Shown here: one piece after another, positions 2,851 to 41,528 of the stretch | How positions within the stretch are numbered: the first letter of the stretch is position 1 | Layout: the number at the start of each line of letters is the position of its first letter | DNA from: Galeopterus variegatus | Lineage: Eukaryota | Length of the DNA stretch: 41,880 bases | Reading direction: 5' to 3' | Assembly: GCF_000696425.1 (NCBI RefSeq) | Contig: NW_007726576.1 | Coordinates: 660,522 to 702,401, forward strand | The notes under the pieces: generated by a model | The model's database searches: none | Seen by the model: the letters and a program-made list of their open reading frames with translations, nothing else | Told to the model about the DNA's origin: nothing | Program-made: the position numbers and the translations under genes

Positions 2851-3146
2851 TTTAAAAAGGAAAAGAAATTAGACATTCACTAACCTTTCGTTTCAGTTCA
2901 TGTGTATCACTGGAAATGAATTCAATCACGTATGGCATCTCAATAGACATAGTCAAAGAGAAGCTACCAAAAATGAGAAGAGTGTTTTAGTCTCATACCT
3001 TAAATTTTTCCTGAAGTTGTTTCACATAATTTAAAGGAAAATTTAAACCATCAAACTAATGTCCATTGAATGATTGACAAGTTTTATATTTTAAGTACTA
3101 ACCTTTGCTTTGTTCCTATTTCCTTTATACAAATCTTCTCTACTGT

Positions 3147-3660
3147 ATCCTGTTAAAGGAAAAGTATATATGGATAACTAAGTATCTATTAGTTTTTTTT
3201 GTTTTTTTTTTTGTCTTTTATCTTTTTTCCGTGTCCGGCAACGGATCGCAACCCTCAGATCCTGTTAAAGGAAAAGTATATATGGATAACTAAGTATCTA
3301 TTTGTTTTTTTTTTTGTCTTTTATCTTTTTTCCGTGTCCGGCAACGGATCGCAACCCCCAGATCCTGTTAAAGGAAAAGTATATATGGATAACTAAGTAT
3401 CTATTTGTTTTTTTTTTTGTCTTTTATCTTTTTTCCGTGTCCGGCAACGGATCGCAACCCCCAGATCCTGTTAAAGGAAAAGTATATATGGATAACTAAG
3501 TATCTATTTGTTTTTTTTTTTGTCTTTTATCTTTTTTCCGTGTCCGGCAACGGATCGCAACCCCCAGATCCTGTTAAAGGAAAAGTATATATGGATAACT
3601 AAGTATCTATTTGTTTTTTTTTTTGTCTTTTATCTTTTTTCCGTGTCCGGCAACGGATCG
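3147..3660. repeat. Tandem array, 103-bp unit x5, made of 47 bp of pre-insertion flank plus the 56-bp 3'-terminal piece of the adjacent SINE
   Basis: The period is exact at 103 bp (ORF-track starts at 3199, 3302, 3405, 3508, 3611). The unit is 'atcctgttaaaggaaaagtatatatggataactaagtatctatt' plus 'tgtttttttttttgtcttttatcttttttccgtgtccggcaacggatcgcaaccc(c/t)cag'. The last unit runs into the full SINE at 3613-3848. Confidence 0.9.
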
Positions 3661-3848
3661 CAAGCCTCAGTGTTGCCCCCGTACCGGACCGGAGACCGGC
3701 AACGGGATTGCAAACCTCGGTGTTGCTCCCGCGCCTCGCTCAGCCAGTGAGCGGGAGCCGGTCTGTATGTGGGATCCGAACCCTCGGGCGGGAGCGCCCC
3801 CGCGCTTCCCAAGCGGCGCACTATCCAGTGCGCCACCGGGCCGGCCCC
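3613..3848 (-). mobile_element. tRNA-derived SINE, class A (~230 bp, three tRNA-like units, A-rich tail)
   Basis: Reverse complement reads GGGCCGGCCCGGTGGCGCACTGGATAGTGCGCC...GGGTTCGGATCCCACATACAGACCGG...GGTTGCAATCCCGTTGC...GGTTGCGATCCGTTGCCGGACACGGAAAAAAGA. The 15-bp TSD GTATCTATTAGTTTT is at 3182-3196 and 3849-3863. Confidence 0.85.
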
Positions 3849-4562
3849 GTATCTATTAGTTTTCACATTGAGGCTCTAAACTAATGTAATTTCAGTAAGG
3901 CCACAACTGAGAACAGCAACGAGACAGCTGGTTTCAGTTCTAAGTAGTGAAACACAGAGCATTTGCTGATGTAATGACAGGAACTTCTAAAGTACAACTA
4001 ATATCAGGGAGCAATTATAACCATTTTGTCAGAGATTTTCAACTCTTACATATGCCTGTGTGCGTGTATACACACACATATGCACACACTTTTATATACA
4101 TGAGGGTACCTTGAAAATTTCATAGAATCTCTCATGAACTTTTAAAAGTGCCCTCCATACAAAGTGCTCTTCACACAAAAATATACATACAAAGTTAGGA
4201 AGTGTGGAAGGATATATACCAAAGCATTAACCAGGCCATGTATGGGCAATGGAATTAAGGATGATTTTTACTTTCTTCTTTTGGCTTATTTGCATACTCT
4301 ATGCTTATCTAAATTCTTCATGATGAACATGCAATACAGATAACAAAACGTTTTGAGTGACTGAACAAATTAAAAATCTTATGCCCATTGAACATATCTG
4401 TGTCTTTTATTCTTTTCATTTTACAGATATAATGCATCCAAATGCATAAATGCCAGTACAATTGACTTTATACACTGAAAAGATTATTTCAGATATTTTT
4501 TCTCGCCTATGCATAAACCTCCCCCAAAATGCTTCTTCATATCTTGTCTTGAACATACAAAC

Positions 4563-4727
4563 CTGAAGGTTTTCATTCAAAGCCTTGTCTTGCTGCCAGG
4601 GCGCTACGGAGGCAGGCATGAAGAAGACAGCAATAGCACCTTGGATGCTGAGTTCTGTGATGTAGGTGATCTTGATAAGCACCTTCGCCTTAGGGGGTAA
4701 GTTTCCAACACTCACAGTAAAAACGTC
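4563..4727 (-). CDS. PARP4: PARP4 exon (start of VIT domain), 165 nt, phase 0/0. Translation: DVFTVSVGNLPPKAKVLIKITYITELSIQGAIAVFFMPASVAPWQQDKALNENLQ
   Basis: Minus-strand acceptor ...ctgtttcag|GACGTT (AG at 4728-4729) and donor CTTCAG|gtttgt. The product is VIT-domain-like (compare ITIH 'FQVSVSVAPNAKITFELVYEEL') and matches my memory of human PARP4 'DVFTVSVGNLPPKAKVLIKITYITELSI'. Confidence 0.85.
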
Positions 4728-5048
4728 CTGAAACAGAAACATATGACAACTTTCAAGCCAAAAGAATCTGTTCTATGCTAGTTAATCACTCATAGTTACT
4801 CAACTTGGATTAAAATCTGCCAGGTTCTTCCTCAGAAAATGGTAATAGAACCTACAAAACACATTGGTGGTGCTAAGGAGAATCCTGGAGCCATTCCCAG
4901 TGGTAGAGACGGAGTGACATGTGCGGGAGGTGGAAGAAGAGAAGGCCCCTTGGCAGCTGCACGGGGGAGCATCACCTAATGGATCTGCACTGTGGCCTCG
5001 CACACATGGGCTTTGTCGAGTGGACGGCCTCCACACAGCCCCCTTCTT

Positions 5049-5238
5049 TTTATTTTATTTTATTTTATTTTTTTATTTTTTTTTAAAAGATGACCGGTAA
5101 GGGGATCTTAACCCTTGACTTGGTGTTGTCAGCACCACACTCAACCATTGAGCGAACCGGCCATCCCTATGTGGGATCCGAACCCGGGGCCTTGGTGTTA
5201 TCAGCACCGCACTCTCCCGAGTGAGCCACGGGCCGGCC
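5049..5238 (-). mobile_element. tRNA-derived SINE, class B (tRNA-Ile-like dimer, ~150 bp) with a (TTTTA)n-type tail
   Basis: Reverse complement reads GGGCCGGCCCGTGGCTCACTCGGGAGAGTGCGGTGCTGATAACACCAAGGCCCCGGGTTCGGATCCCACATAGGGATGGCCGGTTCGCTCAATGGTTGAGTGTGGTGCTGACAACACCAAGTCAAGGGTTAAGATCCCCTTACCGGTCATCTTTTAA. The 17-bp TSD CACACAGCCCCCTTCTT is at 5032-5048 and 5239-5255. Unit 1 resembles tRNA-Ile (GTGGTGCTAATAACGCCAAGG...GGTTCGATCCC). Confidence 0.85.
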
Positions 5239-6618
5239 CACACAGCCCCCTTCTTGAAGAACCTTTGGCCTCCCCAACCTCCACTGCTCCAGCACCAGTT
5301 CCACCCATGGCTACAGAACTAGAGAAGCTTTCTCTCAACAGACACAAGGCAGAATTGGCTGCTGCTGTGGTGGGAGAAGGTGCAGAAATGCAGAGAAGTC
5401 CCCACTGTAATGCCCAGGAGCACAGGTCCTGCCTAAGACTGAAGCTGAACAGAACACCCCTGCCCCCACCACGAGCCTAGCACCAAGTGTCAAGGAAGAG
5501 CAGTCTACCACTAGGGGAGGGACAGGAGCATGGCAAAGCCACCTCTGTGGGACAGTGTTCAGGGCCTGCTGAAAGTGAGGGTAGTGCATGAACGCCAAGG
5601 AAAGCCCTTTGGCATCCCAGGACCCACCATGCACCTGGTAATGGCAGCCCACTACTGGAGTAATTTGAAGACGATGGTGCACTGAGGGTCATAATCACAA
5701 CAAAACCCAAACTCGACTCAACTTTGTGACCCCTACACTAACAGCCTGACAGGACAGGAGTGGCCATTTCTGGCATAAATACCATTTGTTTTAGCCTCTA
5801 CTCTTCTTCTACACCCAATGTTCAGAACTCAATCACAAATTCCAAAATATACACATAAAAAAAGCAAGAAAAAAATGACCAAATGTCAAGAGATAAAGCA
5901 ATTAACAGAACAGACTCAGAGATGACCATGGCAAAAATGTATTTCAAAAAAGAAAGTGAAAGATTTTATCAGATAAGCAAAAGGTGAGAGAATTCCTTGA
6001 GAGCACCCTTGCACTGCAAAAAAAAAAAAATGTTAAAGAGAACTCTTCAAGCAGAAGGAGGATAATACCAGATGGAAATTTTTTTACTTATTTCTAATTG
6101 CTTTAAAAGACAGTTGAATATCTAGAGCAAAAAAGTAACAACATGTTGTGGGATTTATAACATATGAAGAAATAAAATACACAACAATAGCACAAAGATA
6201 TGGGGGGAAATGAAAGTATACTGTTGTGAGGTTCTCATACTATACTTGAAGTAGTGTGATATTACTTCAAGGTAGACTGTGGTAAGTGGAAGATGTACCT
6301 TGTAAAGCCTGAAGCAGTGCTGACCAATATTCCTTTCTATGATGATAAAAATGTTCTATAGATGGACTAACCAATAACACAGCCACTAGACACATGCAAA
6401 CATTTTATTTTATTTTAAAAACTAACTTAAATGTAACTAGTGGCTACTGTATTTTAACATGCAGCTTGAGAGCAAAAACCAAAAGTTGTTAAGAGAGGTA
6501 TAATTAATAAGCCAATAATGGTGATAAAAGAATCATAAAAAATACTCAGTACAAAGAAGGCAGGAAAAGAGAGGGGAAGGAACAAAGAACAAATGGGACA
6601 AACAGAAAACAACTGGCC

Positions 6619-11343: not shown

Positions 11344-12012
11344 CTGGAAAAGATTATTTTTACACCAGTCATTATATGAAGAGGGACTTTAGACTTTACT
11401 AAGGAAAGTTACATCAGTGTTCACTAAACCTAGGTAAAAACAGGAAACTAAGCATCTAAGATGAAAGGAAAGTTATATAAGGTTATCATAAAAATGTACT
11501 TATGTAATAAGGATTTGGACTAGAAAAGGCAAACTAAAGAGAATTCTCTTTATGTTGGGACCAAAATATTTCAGAGTCAATAGTGGAAAAACAGTTTGGT
11601 TGGAACTTTACATTGAACAAAAAAATAATAAAGTTTATTTTAAACTCAATAAATTGTGTGTTATATATAATTGCAACTGTGGGCTAATTCTTAGAATAAA
11701 CAAAGAATAAATCAACTACTATTTCTTTTGGTACAATTTTTCTTAGAAATTTACAATAATAGCTTTTACTTCAGCTTGACTTTTAAGCAGGATGAGAAGG
11801 ATGTTTTGGCAAAAATATATGAGGGCTTCACTAATTTTCCAATGTGCCTCTCTTAAACTTCTGATATTGAAATCACTCTTTTTTAAAGTGCCCAGGCAAA
11901 AAATTTGCAAGACACTGACGATAAAGACTGGACAGGTAAGAACAGAAAACAGTTAACAGGGAGGGACGTTTGACTGGAGGCTGATTGCACAAACGTTTGT
12001 TCTTCAAAGAAT

Positions 12013-12238
12013 TTTTTTTTTTCCTTTTTGTCTTTTTTACTGACCGGTAACGGGATCGCAACCCTCGGTGTCACGCCCGCACCGGGGACCGGCAACGGGA
12101 TCGCAACCCTCAGTGTTGCGCCCGCACCGCGCTCAGCCAGTGAGCGGGAACCGGTCTCCACATGGGATCCGAACCCTCGGCGGGAGCGCCGCCACACTCC
12201 CAAGCGGCGCACTCTCCAGTGCGCCACCGGGCCGGCCC
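12013..12238 (-). mobile_element. tRNA-derived SINE, class A
   Basis: Same structure as the SINE at 6619-6850, in reverse orientation (T-rich start, ...CACTGGAGAGTGCGCCGCTTGGGAGTGTGGCGGCGCTCCCGCCGAGGGTTCGGATCCCATGTGGAGACCGG... head GGGCCGGCCC). The 8-bp TSD CAAAGAAT is at 12005-12012 and 12238-12246. Confidence 0.9.
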
Positions 12239-12372
12239 AAAGAATATTTTTGTTTTATGATAAGGCTGCTACTCAACCCTGCATCCACAGGGACTCAGAT
12301 AACGAAGATTTCAGTAAATGGGAAATTGACTTTGAAAGCACAGAGTGGTTGCAATGCACTTTCTCCCCTTAC

Positions 12373-13380: not shown

Positions 13381-13609
13381 TTTTTTTTTTTCCTTTTTGT
13401 CTTTTTTTACTGACCGGTAATGGGATCACAACCCTTGGTGTCGCGCCCGCACCGGGGACCGGCAACGGGATCGCAACTCTCGGTGTTGTGCCCGCACCAC
13501 GCTCAGCCAGTGAGCGGGAACCGGTCTCCACATGGGATCCGAACCCTCGGCGGGAGCGCCGCCATGCTCCCAAGCAGCGCACTCTCCAGTGCGCCACCAG
13601 GCCGGCCCA
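13381..13609 (-). mobile_element. tRNA-derived SINE, class A
   Basis: Near-identical in structure to the 12013-12238 copy. The TSD is CAAGGG(G)CCCC(C)TTTT, at about 13369-13380 and 13608-13622. Confidence 0.9.
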
Positions 13610-15269
13610 AGGGCCCCTTTTAATATAAACAATTTGAGTCTCCCAAAATCATCAGGTCAGCACCCTCTTGAAGACCCAATCTCTTGCCATCCTGCAAATA
13701 AATGCCTTGCTGGCTGGCAGGAGCGATCCCTGGAACTGGGGTCTGGGCATGGCGCAGGATGACGCCAGAGGTGAGAGCCCAGGAGTTTCTCAGTTATTTG
13801 GGCAACATGGATGCATGGCAGAAGGATGGAGAGTGCCTGACAGGGAAGACACGGGGGCTGGAGGCATGCAGGTGCTGATTGGAGGGGTGTCACACACTGT
13901 CTCCTTGGCTGTGCATGGAACTCCCTCCATTTGTCTCTTGGAGTTTTCTGCAGTTTTAGCAAACCCTTGAGAGCAGCATGTGTGCTTGACCTGGATTTGA
14001 TGAATAGGATGACTATCTAATTGCACTTGGTTTAGGTGCGATTAGATAGTCAGCAGACCTTCTGCACGTGAGCTCCCCAAGGCCAGGCCTGTACCAGCCC
14101 ATTCTCTTCATACATTGTGTGAACAGGCACTCAAAAAGTCAGTCATTTTAGATAATGATGATAAAAGTATTTTTATCAGGACTTAGAACAGAAACTAATA
14201 AACTGTAAAATGTTTGACATCTTAATTTTCTTCCTTTAGATGAAACCACTATGTAACTAAGCTGAAAACATTAAACTCATTCCTAGGAGGATCGAAATGT
14301 GAGTCATGCACATGCCAGAGTCGCGGGTGGGCCTCTGCATGGATACATGAGGCCAATCTACAGGCCAGCTGTCCCATCATAAGTTATTTTTGGGTGACCT
14401 TCCCCAGGGAAGCGGCCTCTTCGGGTCTCTTGAAACAGTGCAAGTTGTGAAATCCGGAGTAAGATGCGGAGGACATATGCCTCTCCTTGTAACATACTCA
14501 TAATTTGTTTTGCAGCTACTACATGTGAAAAGAATGCCCGAGGGCCTTTACATTCGTTACATCTAATAGCCACAACACTGATGGGCAGATAGGATTATTT
14601 CCACTTTACACAGGAGGAAACTGAGGCACAAAGTAGTTAACTAACTTGCCCAAGGTCACGGCGCTAGAAAAGAAGGAGCAAGGATACAAAGCGAGGCCTT
14701 TCCAGCTCCAAGCCTTTGCTTCACAGTCTACGCCAAGCTGCACGACAGTGCAGTGGCTCCGAACCCTGATGCTGGAATTAGAATGATCTGAGTTCAGATT
14801 CCGGCTTCATCGTACTGTTCAGTATCCCTGAGCCTCAGCTTCCTCATCCAAACAACACGCATAATTATTGCACTTACCTCATACAGTTTGGGAAGAACAA
14901 AACACGCATGTGAAAAACTCAACCCAGGGCCTGATTCATAGGAAGTGGTAACCACGGTGGTTATAGCTCCCAAATAGCTCCAAAGGGACTGGCAAGTATA
15001 GAACACTGCCCACAGCCCACATCCACGTCTTCCCATCTGATGTACATCATATCAGGTGGGTATGGATCAGATGGGCCAGGGTGGGGAGGTCAGATAGAGC
15101 CAAACTGCTCTTCCCCACCCCTCCGCACCCGTTTCCCCAGTTTACGGTGATTGCTAAAATGAACCTAATTTCCTTCTAAAGGGATCAGAATATCACAGTA
15201 CTGGACTCAGACATTCTTATTCTCCTAAGAGGTCTTTATATTTGTTTGATGCAATCTTTTTTAAAAAAT

Positions 15270-18700: not shown

Positions 18701-21470
18701 GATATTATTTATTTGGGTCTTTTATCTTTTTTTCTTGGTTAGTATAGCTAATGGTTTGTCAATTTTGTTTATCTTCTCAAAAGAACCAACTTGTTGTTTG
18801 ATCTTTTGTATTGTATTTTTAGTCTCAATTTCATTTATTTCTGCTCTGAGTTTTATTATTTATTTCTACTTATTTTGGACTTGGTTGGTTCTCTCTTTGC
18901 TAGGTTGTTTATTTGAACTCATTCTATTTTTTGATGTAGGCACTTGTTGCTATAAACTTTCCTCTTAATAGTGCCTTGGCTGTGTCCCGTAGGTTTTGGT
19001 ATCTTTTGTTTCTGTCTTCACTTATTCAAGAAATGTTTTGATTTCCTTCTTAATCTCTTCTATGACCCACTGGTCCTTCAAGAGCATGTCATTTAATTTC
19101 CATGTATTTGTGCATTTTTGAAAGCTCCTCTTGTTATTAAGATCTAGATCTATTCCATTATGGTCAGAAAACATACTTGATATGATTTTGAACTTGTTGA
19201 GACTTATTTTGCGGCCCACAATATGGTCAATTCTGGAAAATGTTCCATGTGCAGATGAAAAGAGTATGTATTCTGCAGCTATTGGATGAAATGCTCTGCA
19301 AATATCTGTTAGGTCCAGCTGGTGTATGGTGCCCTTTAAGTCCAATGTTTTGTTGTTGATTTTCTGTCTCGATGATTTGTCTAACACTGAGATTGGGATG
19401 TTATTGTCCCCAACTATTACTGTGTTAGTGTCTATCTCTCCATTTACATCTGATAATATTTATTTTATATACCTGGGTGCTCCACTGTTAGGTGCATATA
19501 TATTTGTTTTTTGGGGTTTTTTTTTGATGGCTAGCCATGGTGCGTAAATTTTTATAATTGTTATATCCTCTTGCTGTATTGATCTCTTTATCATTCTATA
19601 ATGCCCTTCCTTTCTCTTAGTACAGATTTTGATTTAAAGTCTGTTTTATCTGAGATAAGTATAGCTACTTCTGCTTGCTTTTGTTTTCCATTTGCATGGA
19701 ATACCTCATTCCATTCCTTGACTTTCAGTCTATGTGTGTTTTTGTAAGTAGGGTATGTTTCTTATTGGCAGTATATGGATGGGTCATGTTTTTTTTCTTT
19801 TTTAATCTATTAGGCCAGTCTATGTCTTTTAATTAGGGCATTTAATCCATTTACATTCAAGGTTATCATTGATATGTGAAGTCTTGCTCCTGACATTTTG
19901 TTGGTGACTGTTTTGTATTCTTTGTTCCTTTCTTTCTCTTTTATTGTTTATCCTTGTGGTTTGATATTTTCCTGTATTGATAAGGTTTGATTCCTTCATC
20001 TTTCTAATTTGTGTATCTACTCTACTAGTAATTTTATATTTTCAGGTGTTTTCATGATGTTTGCTGTACTTTCTCTTCTAGATGGAGCCCCCTAATCATT
20101 TTTTTTTTGTGGGGCTGGTCTGGTGGTGATGAATTCCCTGAATTTTTTCTTCTCTTAGAAAGACTATTTCTCCTTCATTTTGGAAGGATAGCATTGCTGG
20201 ATATAATATTCTTGGCTGGCAGTTTTTTTTTTTTCAGTACTTTGAATATACCATCCCATTCTCTCCTAGCCTGTAGGGTTTCAGCTGAGAAGTCTGCTGT
20301 TAGTCTAATGATAATTTCCTTATAAGTGACTTGATGTTTTTCTCTTGCTGTTTTTAGAATTCTCTCTTTGTCTTTAACTTTGGATAGTTTGACTACAATG
20401 TGGCTTGGAGTGGGCCCTTTTGGGTTGAATTTATTTGAGGACCTCTGAGCTTCCAGTATTTGGAAATTCATATATTTCCTAAGACTGGGGAAGTTTTCAG
20501 CTATTATTTCATTAAATAGGTTTTCAGTATCTTTTTCGTTTTCTTCTCTTTCTGGAATGCCCATAATTAGAATATTTCCTCACTTATAACATAGATCCTA
20601 TAGGCTTTGTTCGTTCTTTTTTTTTGTCTTCCTGTGTTATTTCAAAACTGCTATCTTCCAGATCAGAAATTCTTTCTTCTGCTTAATCTAGTCTGTTGTT
20701 GAGACTCTCAGATGTTATTTTTTATTTTGTTCAATGAATTCTTTAATTCCAAGATTTGATTTTTTAAATGATATTTATCTCTGTTGAATTTCTCATTCAG
20801 ATCAAGAATTATTTTTCATGATTTTGTTGAATTGTTTGTTTATATACTCTTGTATCTCAGTGAGTTTCCTTAAGATTATTAATTTGAATTCCTTTTCTGG
20901 TAAAACAGCAATTTCTGACTCTTTGGGATCAGTTACTGAAGTATTATTGCGTTTCTTTGATTGTGTCATGTTACCTTGTTTTTTTCATATTTCTTGTTAC
21001 CCTGCATTGATATCTGTGCATCTGGTAGAACACTCCCCTCTTTGAGTTTTGTAGAGTGGCTTGTGTGGGGAAAGACTTTCACCTGCAAGTGTATTCTAGG
21101 GTGTTGATCAGCAGCTGGTCTGCCAAGGGTCAGGCTACTGAGCCACTTCTTGGATAGTGGGCAAGGTCTCTAGGCAGGCCTGCAGAGGGAGCTCAGCCAG
21201 CCACTTCTCAGGTGGTGGGCAAGGCTGAATGTGGGGCTGCAGAGAGCAGGTCTGGCCAATAGCTTTTTGGGTAGTGGATGAGGCTGCTAGGTAGGCCTGC
21301 AGAGAGGGGGCCCAGGCAGCTACTTCTCAGAGGGTGGGTGAGGCCATGAGGTGGGGCTTCAGAGAGGGTTTGTCCAGCCAGCAGCTTCACGGGTGGTGGG
21401 TGAGGCCGCTGGGTGGAACTGCTGAGGATGAACTGCCTGGCTGCTTCTCTGGAAAGGCGCAGCAGTTTGA
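15725..21470 (-). mobile_element. LINE-1, near full-length (~5.7 kb), inactive: 3'UTR, ORF2 (EN/RT/C-term), ORF1, 5'UTR with monomer array
   Basis: Minus-strand ORF fragments in L1 order from high to low coordinates. ORF1 C-terminal domain at 20175-20564 (PSLRKYMNFQILEAQRS...KERILKTAREKHQVTYK). Endonuclease at 19022-19387. RT motifs at 18329-18526 and 17732-17938 ([26 protein letters not shown]...[11 protein letters not shown]). ORF2 C-terminus at 16755-17141. All are interrupted by stops and frameshifts. Confidence 0.85.
21111..21440. repeat. Tandem ~60-bp monomers (about 5 copies), putative L1 5'UTR promoter monomer array
   Basis: Repeating '(g)gcctgcagag(a/g)g(a/c)gctcagccagccacttctcaggtggtgggcaaggc...' with a period of about 58-62 bp, directly 5' of the minus-strand L1. 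This is analogous to murine L1 A/Tf monomers. Confidence 0.6.
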
Positions 21471-36700: not shown

Positions 36701-36928
36701 GGGGCCGGCCCGGTGGCGCACTGGATAGTGCGCTGCTTGGGAAGCGCGGCGGCGCTCCCGCCCGAGGGTTCGGATCCCACATACAGACCGGTTCCCGCTC
36801 ACTGGCTGAGCGAGGCGCGGGAGCAACACCGAGGGTTGCAATCCCGTTGCTGGTCCCGGTCCGGTACGGGGGCAACACTGAGGGTTGCGATCCGTTGCCG
36901 GACACGGAAAAAAGACAAAAAAAAAAAA
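36701..36928 (+). mobile_element. tRNA-derived SINE, class A
   Basis: GGGGCCGGCCCGGTGGCGCACTGGATAGTGCGCTGCTTGGGAAGCGCGGCGGCGCTCCCGCCCGAGGGTTCGGATCCCACATACAGACCGGTTCCCGCTCACTGGCTGAGCGAGGCGCGGGAGCAACACCGAGGGTTGCAATCCCGTTGC...GGACACGGAAAAAAGACAAAAAAAAAAAAAAA. The 13-bp TSD AAAGTTTGCTGCT is at 36688-36700 and 36929-36941. Confidence 0.9.
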
Positions 36929-37173
36929 AAAGTTTGCTGCTCCACAAGCAGACACATGCATACGAGAGTGTTGGCAGCTTTCTGATTTTAAACCCTACTA
37001 CAACACTGTGGCAGGCCCTATGGTTGCAATCCCGTTGCTGGTCCCGGTCCGGTACGGGGGCAACACTGAGGGTTGCGATCCGTTGCCGGACACGGAAAAA
37101 AGACAAAAAAAAAAAAAAAGTTTGCTGCTCCACAAGCAGACACATGCATACGAGAGTGTTGGCAGCTTTCTGA
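36835..37173. repeat. Duplicated block: the SINE 3' half plus 56 bp of 3' flank (36835-36985) repeated at 37022-37173, with a 36-bp filler (36986-37021) between
   Basis: 'ggttgcaatcccgttgctggtcccggtccggtacgggggcaacactgagggttgcgatccgttgccggacacggaaaaaagacaaaaaaaaaaaaaaagtttgctgctccacaagcagacacatgcatacgagagtgttggcagctttctga' occurs twice. The filler 'ttttaaaccctactacaacactgtggcaggccctat' matches 38963-38998 with one mismatch. Confidence 0.85.
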
Positions 37174-37530: not shown

Positions 37531-39349
37531 CCTGCGAATGTGTTTTATTTGTGAGCTATGGCAGAAATGCAGATTGACTTAACCTTTCCCTGAAGACAGT
37601 CAGGGTGAAGGCACAGCCTTTATGAAGAACAAGGTGACATGGCTCACACAAACATGGTGTCAACCACCAAGTTACTGAAGTTTACATTACTTAACTGCTA
37701 TGTCCTTCCAAAGTGAGTTAAGACCTCATGCTTCGTCAGAAAAGGACTTGAAGGGAAACTCTTATATGTAAGGTTTACAACTAGCCATAGACAGCCTACA
37801 ACATGAAATGCACAATCATGTAAAATAAGATATTCTATTACACAGTCACACAATACACACAGCACATTCCGAGTGCATGTGCGTTTGTGTAGAGATGGCA
37901 CTAAAATTTCTAGCACAGGAATACCTGTTTCCACAATAACTGATGCCCATAAAGATATTTCACAGTCTGAAATCATGGAATTCTAAGAGTTTACATGGGA
38001 TGTTTAACACAGAACCAGCAATTGGTCCACACAACTCTGAATTATTCACTGTATCTTCAAAGTAGTATGAGCTACTTAAAAGGGAAACTGTAAGGTCTAA
38101 CAGCACAGGTCTGGGAAGGTGAAAGGGGCATAGACTAAGGCTGCCTGGTAGGTAGGTCAGTGTCCAGGACCTGCTGCCCAGTGAGGAAGCCAGCAGGAAA
38201 GCCTGGCTGGGACGGCACCACCTGGGGAGAGGCAGGCACCTGCTGTGTCCACAGGAGGGGGGTCTGGAAGAACCTTCCACACACGTTTCCTCTGGAGGAG
38301 GCACTGTGAGTGGTGGCTTTTCAAAAGGCCCTTTGTACTGGTAGCTGTCCTTGGGTTTTGGTGGTTTCAATGGTTGCTGCTGTTTCTTCCAAGAAAAGAG
38401 GAGGTGATACACTCCTGTTTCCATCGTCCTTTCTTGCAGTCAATGCCACAGGCAAAAAATGCAGGCACCAAGACACCTGACCAGAGAAGCAGTGACCAGC
38501 ATTGCACAAAGACCAGGGCTCATGCCAGCACCAGCTTCCACAGGATGCCCCACTTCAAACCAGAGGTTTAGTTCATGTCACAGAAGCACATGCCATGAAG
38601 TTACGGTTTCTGATGAACAGATCAGTGTGAAAAATGAAGAGAAGGCTGTATTTCCACAGAAGCAGCTCATCTGGAAAACACCCCAAAGCATCTGATACTG
38701 CTTTTTGGATGAAGTTTATCTGGCAGACTCTGATGAACAGGGGAGGCTGGTCTTGATTCAAAAATTAAGATTACTCCCACATTTCCAAGTTTTCAGAGAC
38801 ATTCGGCTTTGGGGGTCTTCATGCTGGGGGGCCTTATCCCTTGCTCACAATCTGTTTAATGGTGTCAAGGAGCTGCAAGCGCCAGGAGGCACAGTGCTCG
38901 GGGTGAACGGGGGAGGGCCAGAGCACATCCCTGTCAATAAAGCTTGTTCAGATACATCATTCTTTTAATCCCTACTACAACACTGTGGCAGGCCCTATCA
39001 TCCTCACTGTACAGCTGAGAAAGTGAGGCTCTGAGAAGTTAAATCAATTGCTCAAGATCCCACAGCGAGGAGGGATAGTGACTGTGATATGATGAAAATA
39101 TGTATTTGGACTTCGTCCTCCTCTCCTGGCACACAACTCCTAAAATCCTTAGAATCTCCAAAGTGGTAAGAGTCTCTTCATATGCTGACAATGGCTGGCA
39201 GCCCCCTAGGTAGCTTCAGGATGGGTCTGGTCGCAGGAAAGCCCAAGACCGGACTGAAGGTTGTGACTTCCAGTCCCACCCACAACCTCCTGAGAGGGGA
39301 GAGGGGCTGAAGGTTAATTCGATCACCAGAGGCCAGTGGTTTAATCAAT

Positions 39350-40850: not shown

Positions 40851-41528
40851 ACCTGCCGAGCGGAGGCGGGGAGGGGCGGGGGTGCAGAGGTGCTGCCACC
40901 GGGGCGAGCCAGTCGGGAGCGCGTGAGGCGTCGGGAGGCTGAGCCCCGCAGCGAGTCCCCTACGTGCACTCGCCGCCCGCCAGCCACCATGGCGTTTCTC
41001 CTGCGCGTGGTGCTCCTCCTGTGCGGAGTCGCCGGCATTAGCAGCCAAGCAGCGCAGCGCCATGTTGGATGCTCTGCTGGTTGAGTGAAGAAAATCCACC
41101 GGCATCGCCTGAGCCCCGCACCCGAGAAGGGCACCGCTTCCCCCGGGGAGGGGGACAAAGACTCCCCGCCCCCGGCCCATGAGGATATTGCGTGAAAGGC
41201 TCAGCGGCTGCAGCAGGAACCGGACTGGCACCGGGGCGGCAGCAGCAGCGGCAGCAGCAGTACCGCCTCCTCACCCAGTGGCGACAGCAGCGGCGGCGGC
41301 AGCTGCGGCCCCTCCTCACCCGAACATCAGGGCCCTCCAGACCCAGGTGCCCCAACATATGGAGCCGAGCGGGAGCCAACGGGCGGCGGCCGCACTCAGA
41401 CCGGGGACTCCGCGCGCTGCCCCGGATTCTCCTCTGAGTCTGCTGCTCTGTTCATTAGACTGCCCAGTGGAACAGAAGACACTCTGCTCATTTCATCTGA
41501 TCTGTGGACTGTGAAACCCCCAGCCACA
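40851..41528 (+). promoter_or_regulatory. CpG-rich L1 5'UTR / internal promoter candidate, with no monomer array
   Basis: Very high CpG and G+C content, with (CAG/CGG)n-like runs. It lies immediately 5' of the ORF1 ATG and begins exactly where the older L1 is interrupted. Confidence 0.45.

What the first reader, a model, noticed from the sequence alone, without database searches (positions are those of the whole stretch)
3147..3660. SINE-junction minisatellite: 103-bp unit x5 composed of target flank plus SINE tail
The repeat unit is not a simple sequence. It is 47 bp of pre-insertion flank, including the TSD GTATCTATT(A/T)GTTTT, fused to the 56-bp 3'-terminal segment of the minus-strand SINE (tail plus last tRNA-like unit, down to ...GCAACCC(C/T)CAG). 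The fusion point inside the SINE is identical in all units and the units are over 98% identical, so this is a recent amplification. The original junction was duplicated four more times, which points to replication slippage or unequal exchange seeded at the SINE tail. The 103-bp periodicity produces the laddered ORFs at 3199, 3302, 3405 and 3508. It is not CRISPR-like: the units are contiguous, with no unique spacers between them.
Basis: seen in the sequence. Interest (0 to 1): 0.6.

Follow-up and report, generated by a model that had tools for sequence, protein, structure and literature searches.

The report
SINE-tail/flank junction minisatellite in intron
A short mobile element (SINE) landed in an intron of a mammalian PARP4-like gene, and the ~110-bp piece spanning its tail and the neighbouring host DNA was later copied head-to-tail into a five-unit minisatellite; this is a clean but ordinary example of a known way that tandem repeats arise.

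Summary
Window 3147-3670 holds five head-to-tail units. U1 is 112 bp. U2-U4 are 103 bp and identical. U5 is 103 bp and runs on into a complete minus-strand SINE ending at 3848. Each unit is 35 bp of unique flank, then the target-site duplication and A-rich tail, then the last 30 bp of the SINE body.

An orthologous contig from another mammal has an empty site: no SINE, no array, one copy of the flank. SINE and array are therefore derived, and the flank assignment is correct.

The unit variants are a 9-bp tail indel and two substitutions. They nest without conflict as ((U2,U3,U4),U5),U1, and U1 is ancestral. That implies at least three successive steps. Three unit haplotypes exceed the two alleles of a diploid single-copy locus, so at least one duplication is real. 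The count of identical inner units cannot be verified here.

The fusion point has no microhomology, so the initiating event is unknown. Later growth by unequal exchange or slippage is inferred.

This is a new member of a known kind, a transposon-derived single-locus minisatellite. One less ordinary point: 3 of 7 SINE insertions in the window carry a boundary-spanning tandem duplication. This is either SINE-linked instability or a gap-closing artefact.

The parts
3147..3258 (+). Unit 1 (112 bp). This is the ancestral-type unit: 35 bp flank, intact 15-bp TSD, full-length T-rich tail (complement of the A-tail), and the last 30 bp of the SINE body ending ...GCAACCCTCAG.
   Evidence: The 30-bp body part is identical to the same segment of the sister young copy at 36878-36907.
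3259..3567 (+). Units 2-4 (3 x 103 bp, identical to each other). They carry the 9-bp tail deletion and a private T>C change (GCAACCCCCAG).
   Evidence: TRF; the repeat finder family D1.
3568..3670 (+). Unit 5 (103 bp). This is the native junction that continues into the full SINE. It has the 9-bp deletion and a private C>G change (GCAAGCCTCAG).
3603..3848 (-). Complete SINE on the minus strand. The body is 3641-3848 (208 bp): Pol III A- and B-box-like head, a second tRNA-like unit and an extra 3' half-unit. The A-rich tail plus TSD remnant is 3603-3640.
   Evidence: BLAST of this copy against the window. Alignment of 7 copies. Alignment to the older dimeric tRNA-like SINE. 96.6% identical to the copy at 36701.
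3182..3196 (+). Left target-site duplication GTATCTATTAGTTTT, intact only in unit 1.
   Evidence: It matches 3849-3863 at 15 of 15 positions.
3849..3863 (+). Right target-site duplication GTATCTATTAGTTTT, next to the SINE head.
   Evidence: The corresponding sequence is present once in the outgroup L001.
3191..3199 (+). The 9 bp AGTTTTTTT present in unit 1 and absent from units 2-5. This is a slippage-type deletion between two adjacent GTTTTTTT runs.
   Evidence: Removing these 9 bp makes U1 equal to U2 except at one position.
2876..3146 (+). Single-copy intronic flank left of the array. It is orthologous to L001 925-1197.
   Evidence: BLAST: L001 876-1197 matches window 3195-2876 at 81% identity.

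Best explanation
An L1-mobilised, multi-unit tRNA-like SINE inserted in minus orientation into an intron of a PARP4-like gene and made a 15-bp target-site duplication. After integration, a 112-bp segment was duplicated in tandem at the DNA level. That segment comprised 35 bp of flank, the TSD, the tail and the last 30 bp of the SINE body. The join was blunt, with no homology. This points to end joining or a template switch during repair or replication, not slippage between direct repeats.

Once two units existed, the 100+ bp of perfect homology allowed out-of-register pairing (unequal sister-chromatid or allelic exchange, or replication slippage), and the array grew. The inferred order is: first duplication; a 9-bp slippage deletion in the tail of a SINE-proximal unit; further duplication; a T>C change in an inner unit and a C>G change in the native unit; then a very recent triplication of the inner unit.

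The extra units lack the SINE's Pol III promoter head and cannot act as source elements. The array is most likely a neutral, probably copy-number-variable, intronic minisatellite.

Shown: the structure, the derived state, the order of variants and the absence of microhomology. Inferred: the enzymatic mechanism, neutrality and polymorphism.
For: - Tandem array with a single fusion point.
- SINE family with 7 independent TSD-flanked copies in the window.
- Orthologous empty site in two independent contigs of another mammal, L001 and L003. The window alignment jumps from 3848 to 3195 and overlaps only over the TSD.
- Unit variants form a conflict-free nested pattern ((U2,U3,U4),U5),U1. U1 equals the family state and the outgroup state at the TSD.
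- Three distinct unit haplotypes exceed what two alleles of a single-copy locus can give.
- All units share the same complex tail pattern and the same truncation point, as expected for DNA copying and not for separate retrotranspositions.
- TE-derived tandem repeats, including partial Alus next to full Alus, are frequent in human. They are enriched for young elements and mostly lack flanking direct repeats (PMC3389668).
Against: - No read-level data are available, so the number of identical inner units (U2-U4) is unverified.
- The SINE-side breakpoint lies exactly 30 bp into the repeated SINE body. That equals k-1 for a k=31 de Bruijn assembler. However, U2-U4 carry a private variant 3 bp from that point, which argues against a contig-end origin.
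- No closer relative carrying the SINE with a single junction could be found. Post-insertion timing of the first duplication is therefore inferred, not shown.
- Two other SINE-boundary duplications in the same window suggest a systematic cause that this simple model does not explain.
Confidence: 0.7

Rival explanations
1. Assembly artefact. The true locus has one junction (or fewer units), and the extra units come from unmerged overlapping contig ends, doubly filled gaps or a mis-resolved repeat loop at a young, high-copy SINE.
For: - Three of the seven SINE insertions in the window carry a boundary-spanning duplication, far more than random placement predicts (about 1e-4; about 0.003 conditional on this one).
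- The other two are near-perfect two-copy duplications with fillers: 0 mismatches in 152 bp with a 36-bp filler copied from 2 kb away, and 1 mismatch in 170 bp with a 1-nt filler. Gap closers are known to produce this.
- The affected copies are among the youngest, where short-read contigs break.
- If the host is a colugo, as the tRNA-Ile-like multi-unit SINE suggests from memory, one public assembly is Illumina/SOAPdenovo2 with gap closing (PMC4980104).
- U2-U4 are identical, so their number is not constrained by sequence.
- The SINE-side breakpoint is 30 bp (k-1 for k=31) into the body.
Against: - Three unit haplotypes cannot come from two alleles of one unit.
- Two different fusion-junction sequences exist (CCCTCAG|ATCC and CCCCCAG|ATCC). 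Simple abutting would need four consecutive 103-bp contigs.
- U2-U4 have a private variant 3 bp from the fusion point, so their k-mers were not ambiguous there.
- The window has no N.
- The variants nest as a clean phylogeny.
Confidence: 0.15
2. Insertion-coupled origin of the first duplication. During target-primed reverse transcription the nascent cDNA (tail plus 30 nt) aborted. The 3' end re-copied 50 nt of upstream target DNA and re-primed on the SINE RNA. Alternatively, widely staggered L1-endonuclease nicks were filled in. Either route gives two units at birth, and later expansion proceeds as in the main model.
For: - The blunt junction without microhomology fits this.
- The two oldest unit types differ in the register of the TSD/tail junction (the 9-bp difference), which could reflect two priming events.
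- Duplications occur on the youngest copies.
- Ahmed and Liang suggest that some TE tandem repeats are triggered during retrotransposition and near L1-endonuclease sites (PMC3389668).
- In the duplication at 32917-33257, the flank-side breakpoint lies within the right TSD, beside a regenerated TTTT/AA site.
Against: - It needs an undocumented RNA-to-DNA-to-RNA template-switch cycle.
- The 9-bp difference is explained more simply by slippage between two adjacent GTTTTTTT runs.
- The breakpoints at 3146/3147 and 3258/3259 do not resemble L1-endonuclease sites.
- It explains only two of the five units.
Confidence: 0.1
3. Four independent 5'-truncated SINE insertions, or retro-copies of a read-through SINE transcript, at the same site.
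For: SINE tails are preferred L1 targets. The units start with SINE 3' sequence plus a tail.
Against: - The truncation point and the complex tail pattern (A6 GAT A4 GAC A11 C...) are identical in every unit.
- Each unit carries the same 35 bp of non-TSD flank.
- There are no additional TSDs.
- The unit extends 14 bp beyond the first TTTT Pol III terminator of the flank, so it is not a terminated read-through transcript.
Confidence: 0.01
4. The three identical inner units arose in one step by rolling-circle copying of an excised ~103-bp circle, or by one multi-unit slippage event, and not by stepwise unequal exchange.
For: U2, U3 and U4 are 100% identical.
Against: There is no specific signature. 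Stepwise recent exchange or gene conversion gives the same result.
Confidence: 0.04

Closest known systems
Transposable-element-derived single-locus minisatellites in human (Ahmed & Liang 2012, PMC3389668; Jurka & Gentles 2006, Gene 365:21, cited there)
   Same: Part of a SINE is repeated head-to-tail next to a full-length copy. The array is at a single locus, and the element is young. There are no flanking direct repeats, as for the ~94% of human cases whose initiation is unexplained. Expansion appears gradual, with divergence between units.
   Different: The unit here is a hybrid: roughly half is unique host flank plus TSD and half is SINE tail and body. It is not made of TE sequence alone. 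It has five units where most human cases have two. The SINE family and host are different.
SINE-derived satellites of squamate reptiles (Vassetzky et al. 2023, PMC10702118)
   Same: Tandem repeats whose unit comes from part of a SINE. Copy number varies between orthologous loci.
   Different: Those are multi-locus families of SINE-internal units, sometimes in long arrays. This is one locus with a flank-containing unit that cannot have spread as a family. [quoted passage not shown]
SVA-type composite elements (SINE-VNTR-Alu)
   Same: A minisatellite physically joined to SINE-derived sequence.
   Different: In SVA the VNTR is internal to a mobile element and is copied with it to many loci. Here the array lies outside the transcribed promoter-bearing SINE unit, contains host flank, and shows no sign of mobility. 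The flank segment occurs only in this array within the window.
Tandem duplications with templated insertions from replication template switching or polymerase-theta end joining (general knowledge of FoSTeS/MMBIR and TMEJ)
   Same: The junction is blunt or low in homology. A neighbouring SINE-boundary duplication at 36834-37173 carries a 36-bp insertion copied from 2 kb away. That is the hallmark of such events.
   Different: No templated insertion is present in the 3147-3670 array itself. The mechanism is inferred by analogy only.

Membership tests
Minisatellite / VNTR-type tandem repeat | Head-to-tail copies of a 10-100+ bp unit with no intervening unique sequence | tested here: met
   Five contiguous units of 112/103 bp. 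TRF score 925. Exact starts.
Minisatellite / VNTR-type tandem repeat | Copy number varies among individuals | not testable with these tools
   Only one sequence of the locus is available. No reads or other individuals.
TE-derived tandem repeat (sensu Ahmed & Liang 2012) | The unit sequence derives from a transposable element present at the locus | tested here: met
   Tail plus 30 bp of SINE body in every unit. These match the other family copies at 92-98%.
L1-mobilised tRNA-derived SINE (the parent element) | Dispersed copies, each flanked by its own target-site duplication and ending in an A-rich tail | tested here: met
   Seven copies with different TSDs and A-rich tails.
L1-mobilised tRNA-derived SINE (the parent element) | Pol III promoter (A and B boxes) in a tRNA-related head | tested here: inconclusive
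   By eye, TGGCGCACTGG matches 10 of 11 positions of the A-box consensus and GGTTCGGATCC matches 10 of 11 of the B box (consensus from general knowledge). ARAGORN calls a tRNA only in the older dimeric relative. Rfam gives only an insignificant tRNA-Sec hit on the head (E=6.6). Homology of the young SINE to that tRNA-like dimer is shown.
L1-mobilised tRNA-derived SINE (the parent element) | Presence/absence at orthologous sites (empty site in relatives) | tested here: met
   L001 and L003 lack the SINE and the array at the orthologous position.
Named SINE family (dermopteran t-SINE/CYN or bat Rhin-1) | Sequence match to the published consensus; host taxon | not testable with these tools
The literature sequence search was empty. 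The host was not identified. No ORF of this SINE exists in the protein collection. The names are leads from memory only.
SVA-like composite retrotransposon | The VNTR-plus-SINE composite is itself present at several loci with its own TSDs | tested here: not met
   The 35-bp flank segment of the unit occurs only inside this array. The flank is ancestral single-copy intron sequence. A genome-wide check was not possible.
CRISPR array | Short direct repeats separated by unique spacers of similar length; prokaryotic context | tested here: not met
   Units are contiguous with no spacers. The window is mammalian intron with L1, MIR and SINEs.
Satellite DNA | Long arrays (kb to Mb), usually multi-locus | tested here: not met
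   The array is 524 bp, at one locus within the window.

The most novel reading that the evidence does not exclude
This multi-unit tRNA-like SINE family may be an intrinsic hotspot for tandem duplications that span its boundaries. Three of seven insertions in 42 kb are affected, against about 0.2% of human Alus. All SINE-side breakpoints fall in the GC-rich, hairpin-prone 3' half-tRNA repeats (body positions 133, 162 and 178). One event carries a 36-bp insertion templated from 2 kb away. If real and genome-wide, young copies of this SINE would stall forks or attract nicks and would seed minisatellites by template switching. The 3147-3670 array would be one that went on to expand.
Probability: 0.2. 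Interest if true: 0.5.

Novelty: new member of a known kind. Interest (0 to 1): 0.25.

Why it matters
The locus is a well-resolved snapshot of minisatellite birth. The ancestral empty site, the founding junction and the order of later steps can all be read from the sequence.

It offers a likely copy-number-variable marker in a PARP4-like intron. It multiplies a splice-acceptor-like motif (ACTTTTCCTTTAACAG|G) five times in gene-sense orientation, although no effect has been shown.

Its wider value depends on the excess of SINE-boundary duplications in this window. If that excess is biological, it points to a repeat family that destabilises its own borders. If it is technical, it flags a systematic assembly error at young SINEs that would inflate tandem-repeat and structural-variant catalogues for this genome.

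Tried and rejected
1. Exact look-up of ten ORFs spanning the array and the two other duplications in the 15-billion-protein collection found none. No independent assembly of the junction could be retrieved.

2. A protein search with a SINE-frame peptide found no homologues. The host lineage is absent from the collection. No closer relative carrying the SINE could be obtained, and no genome-wide census was possible.

3. A literature search for the SINE 5' sequence and for the outgroup's run accessions gave no hits. Neither the SINE's name nor the outgroup species could be fixed. 'Rhin-1' and colugo t-SINE remain unverified leads.

4. An Rfam scan of 3000-4000 gave only chance-level hits.

5. 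Hairpin hypothesis. The SINE 3' domain folds as DNA at -19.6 kcal/mol, z = -1.75 (11 of 200 shuffles fold as well). Unit 1 has z = -1.3. The breakpoints sit near predicted loops, but the evidence is weak and was not used as support.

6. I looked by eye for direct repeats or microhomology at the breakpoints (Haber-Louis or slipped-strand initiation). There are none at CAG|ATCC. A flanking TGT...TGT pair does not fit the observed junction.

7. The read-through transcript or 3'-transduction retro-copy model was rejected. The unit passes the first TTTT terminator and has no TSDs of its own.

8. Clustering of the three SINE-side breakpoints within 46 bp of a 208-bp body is not significant (roughly P = 0.15 by a simple estimate).

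9. An Alu search in the window and the outgroup contigs, intended to place the taxa, found nothing.

Full report
**Context.** The window is mammalian nuclear DNA. It contains L1 fragments (for example ORF2-like 260-724, the 3' end at 2500-2815, and ORF1/ORF2-like pieces at 16.7-20.6 kb), a MIR-like element and seven independent copies of a ~208-bp GC-rich SINE with A-rich tails.

Two exon-like ORFs lie on the minus strand. One is the PARP catalytic type within 25396-25686. The other is the VIT type at about 4562-4733. Their homologues carry PF00644 and PF08487. That combination is characteristic of PARP4 (general knowledge). The finding lies in the intron 0.7-1.4 kb downstream of the VIT exon. 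The SINE is in the same orientation as the gene.

**The observation.** TRF finds 3198-3670 with period 103, 4.6 copies, 99% matches and score 925. Exact parsing gives five contiguous units:
- U1, 3147-3258, 112 bp
- U2, 3259-3361, 103 bp
- U3, 3362-3464, 103 bp
- U4, 3465-3567, 103 bp
- U5, 3568-3670, 103 bp

U5 continues without a break into the rest of a complete minus-strand SINE, whose body spans 3641-3848.

Each unit has three parts: 35 bp of unique sequence (ATCCTG...AACTAA), then the target-site duplication fused to the T-rich complement of the SINE tail, then the last 30 bp of the SINE body (CCGTGTCC...CAG). The TSD GTATCTATTAGTTTT is intact at 3182-3196 in U1 and at 3849-3863 beyond the SINE head.

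The 35-bp flank piece occurs five times in the window, all in the array, and never in shuffles. The 'laddered' ORFs at 3199, 3302, 3405 and 3508 (and 3611) exist. They are a trivial result of a period of 103, which is 1 mod 3.

The array ends at 3670. U1 is 9 bp longer than the others. The flank/SINE split differs by a few ambiguous T residues.

**What the SINE is.** The seven copies have different TSDs and A-rich tails. The copy at 3848 and the one at 36701 are 96.6% identical and form the youngest pair.

Alignment to an older dimeric element in the window is informative. That element lies at 5060-5262 (minus) and 31440-31640 (plus). ARAGORN reads its second unit as a tRNA (Val, GAC). The alignment shows that the young SINE is that dimer plus an extra 3' half-unit.

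The 30 bp in the repeat unit is the T-arm- and acceptor-like end of a third, partial tRNA-like unit. The A-box- and B-box-like head is not part of the repeat, so the extra units are not potential source genes.

The family's name could not be established. From memory, the tRNA-Ile-like multi-unit architecture resembles the dermopteran t-SINE/CYN family more than bat Rhin-1. The SINE is absent from the 5.8-billion-protein ORF collection.

**Ancestral state.** A protein search with the two exon peptides led to short Logan contigs from another mammal, with 91% identity in the exon. In L001 the alignment to the window runs 4026-3848 and then resumes at 3195-2876. The two segments overlap only over the TSD. 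L003 shows the same.

The outgroup sequence ...TTGTGAAACTAAAGAGATACGTACTTAATCATCTTTCCTTTTAACAGGATACGG... carries the flank once and contains no SINE or repeat. This proves three things. The 35-bp-plus-TSD segment is pre-insertion host DNA. The SINE and array are derived. The TSD version in U1, and to the right of the SINE, is the ancestral one.

**History read from the units.** Only three characters vary:
- a 9-bp indel (AGTTTTTTT, present only in U1)
- position 97 (C, but G in U5)
- position 100 (T, but C in U2-U4)

U1 has the family or outgroup state at all three. The pattern is ((U2,U3,U4),U5),U1 with no homoplasy.

The minimum history has five stages:
1. SINE insertion.
2. Duplication of the 112-bp junction segment.
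3. A 9-bp deletion between two adjacent GTTTTTTT runs in the SINE-proximal unit.
4. Another duplication, followed by one substitution in each daughter.
5. A recent triplication of the inner unit, with zero differences.

Three distinct unit haplotypes cannot be two alleles of a single unit, so at least one duplication is real in the sequenced genome.

**Mechanism.** The fusion is ...CCCTCAG|ATCCTG.... The native continuations are ...CAG|TGTTGCC (SINE) and ...ACTGT|ATCCTG (flank). No base is shared on either side. The founding event was therefore not slippage between direct repeats.

It is better described as a blunt tandem duplication of the kind produced by end joining or by a template switch without homology (inference). 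After that, 103-112 bp of near-identity is ample for out-of-register exchange or slippage (established knowledge of minisatellite dynamics; inference here).

This matches the human picture. Thousands of TE-derived minisatellites exist. Young elements are over-represented. There are 136 cases of a partial Alu beside a full Alu. About 94% have no flanking direct repeats and an unexplained initiation (PMC3389668).

DNA folding of the SINE 3' domain places the breakpoint near a predicted hairpin loop. The stability is not exceptional (z = -1.75), so I do not rely on it.

**Rivals.** Separate truncated insertions or retro-copies are excluded by the identical truncation point, the identical complex tail, the shared non-TSD flank, and a unit end that lies beyond the first TTTT terminator.

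An insertion-coupled first duplication (abortive TPRT and re-priming, or widely staggered nicks) cannot be excluded. It would account for the different TSD/tail register of U1 versus U5. It requires an undocumented template-switch cycle and is less parsimonious than a slippage deletion.

Assembly error is the rival that matters most. I had no reads. U2-U4 are identical. The SINE-side breakpoint is 30 bp (k-1 for k=31) into the repeated body.

Four points argue against it:
- there are three unit haplotypes
- there are two different fusion-junction sequences
- U2-U4 carry a private variant only 3 bp from the fusion point, so those k-mers were not ambiguous
- the window contains no N

I put the chance that the array as such is spurious near 0.1. 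The chance that the copy number is wrong is somewhat higher.

**The unexpected pattern.** The only other long-period, high-identity tandem duplications in the window also straddle SINE boundaries.

The first is at 36834-36985 and 37022-37173. The two copies are 152 bp with no mismatch and consist of SINE 3' end, tail, TSD and flank. They are separated by 36 bp (36986-37021) that match 38963-38998, inside a MIR-like element 2 kb downstream, at 35 of 36 positions.

The second is at 32917-33086 and 33088-33257. The two copies are 170 bp with one CpG mismatch and consist of 162 bp of SINE 5' sequence plus 8 bp of the right TSD. They are separated by one extra G.

Three of seven insertions are thus affected. 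Random placement of three duplications of these sizes would give this with probability about 1e-4, or about 0.003 conditional on the flagged one. The human Alu rate is about 0.2% (PMC3389668).

Either this SINE family destabilises its borders, with the templated insertion as a hallmark of template switching, or the assembly mishandles young SINEs. Doubly filled gaps and fillers recruited through mate pairs would look the same. One candidate host, the colugo, has a SOAPdenovo2 gap-closed assembly (PMC4980104). I could not discriminate between these with the tools available.

**Verdict.** The feature is a new member of a well-known kind: a TE-derived, single-locus minisatellite, here with a hybrid flank/SINE unit. 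It probably has no function. Interest is low to modest. The SINE-boundary duplication excess is the one lead worth a genome-wide, read-backed check.

Noticed in passing
window 36834-37173 (source of filler: 38963-38998): A second SINE-junction duplication. The 152 bp comprising the last 74 bp of the SINE body at 36701-36907, its tail, the TSD and 43 bp of flank occur twice with no mismatch. The copies are separated by a 36-bp insert that matches part of a MIR-like element 2 kb downstream at 35 of 36 positions. This is either a templated insertion from template switching or a mis-filled gap.
   Followed up: partly
window 32917-33257: A third SINE-boundary duplication. The 170 bp comprising the 5' 162 bp of the minus-strand SINE at 32847-33078 plus 8 bp of its right TSD occur twice, with one CpG mismatch (at 32925) and a single extra G (33087) at the joint. 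The flank-side breakpoint lies beside a regenerated TTTT/AA L1-endonuclease-like site.
   Followed up: partly
window-wide (SINE copies at 3848, 6620, 12238, 13608, 30983, 33078, 36701): Three of seven independent insertions of this SINE family carry a boundary-spanning tandem duplication, and they are among the youngest copies. Random placement gives about 1e-4. No other long-period, high-identity tandem duplication exists in the window.
   Followed up: partly
window 5060-5262 (-) and 31440-31640 (+): Older dimeric tRNA-like SINE copies whose second unit ARAGORN reads as tRNA-Val(GAC). The young 208-bp SINE is this dimer plus an extra 3' half-unit. From memory the architecture resembles the colugo t-SINE/CYN family, which is unverified.
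   Followed up: partly
window 4562-4733 (-), 25396-25686 (-), about 41000-41500: Exon-like ORFs with VIT-domain and PARP-catalytic homologues indicate a PARP4-like gene on the minus strand. A GC-rich region with a GCA/GCG-rich imperfect 45-bp repeat (41235-41321) may be its CpG island or 5' end.
   Followed up: partly
window 3147-3670, minus strand reading: Read in gene sense, each unit ends in ACTTTTCCTTTAACAG|GAT, a polypyrimidine-plus-AG motif like a 3' splice site. It is ancestral (present once in outgroup L001) and now occurs five times in the intron. No evidence of use.
   Followed up: no
window 21177-21416: A degenerate GC-rich 60-bp minisatellite (4 copies, 64% matches) unrelated to the SINE.
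   Followed up: no
window 12012-12240 and 13382-13610: Two minus-strand SINE copies of an older subfamily lie 1,370 bp apart and are 92-93.5% identical. Each contains two full 45-bp half-tRNA repeats, which TRF detects. The internal repeat number therefore differs between subfamilies.
   Followed up: no
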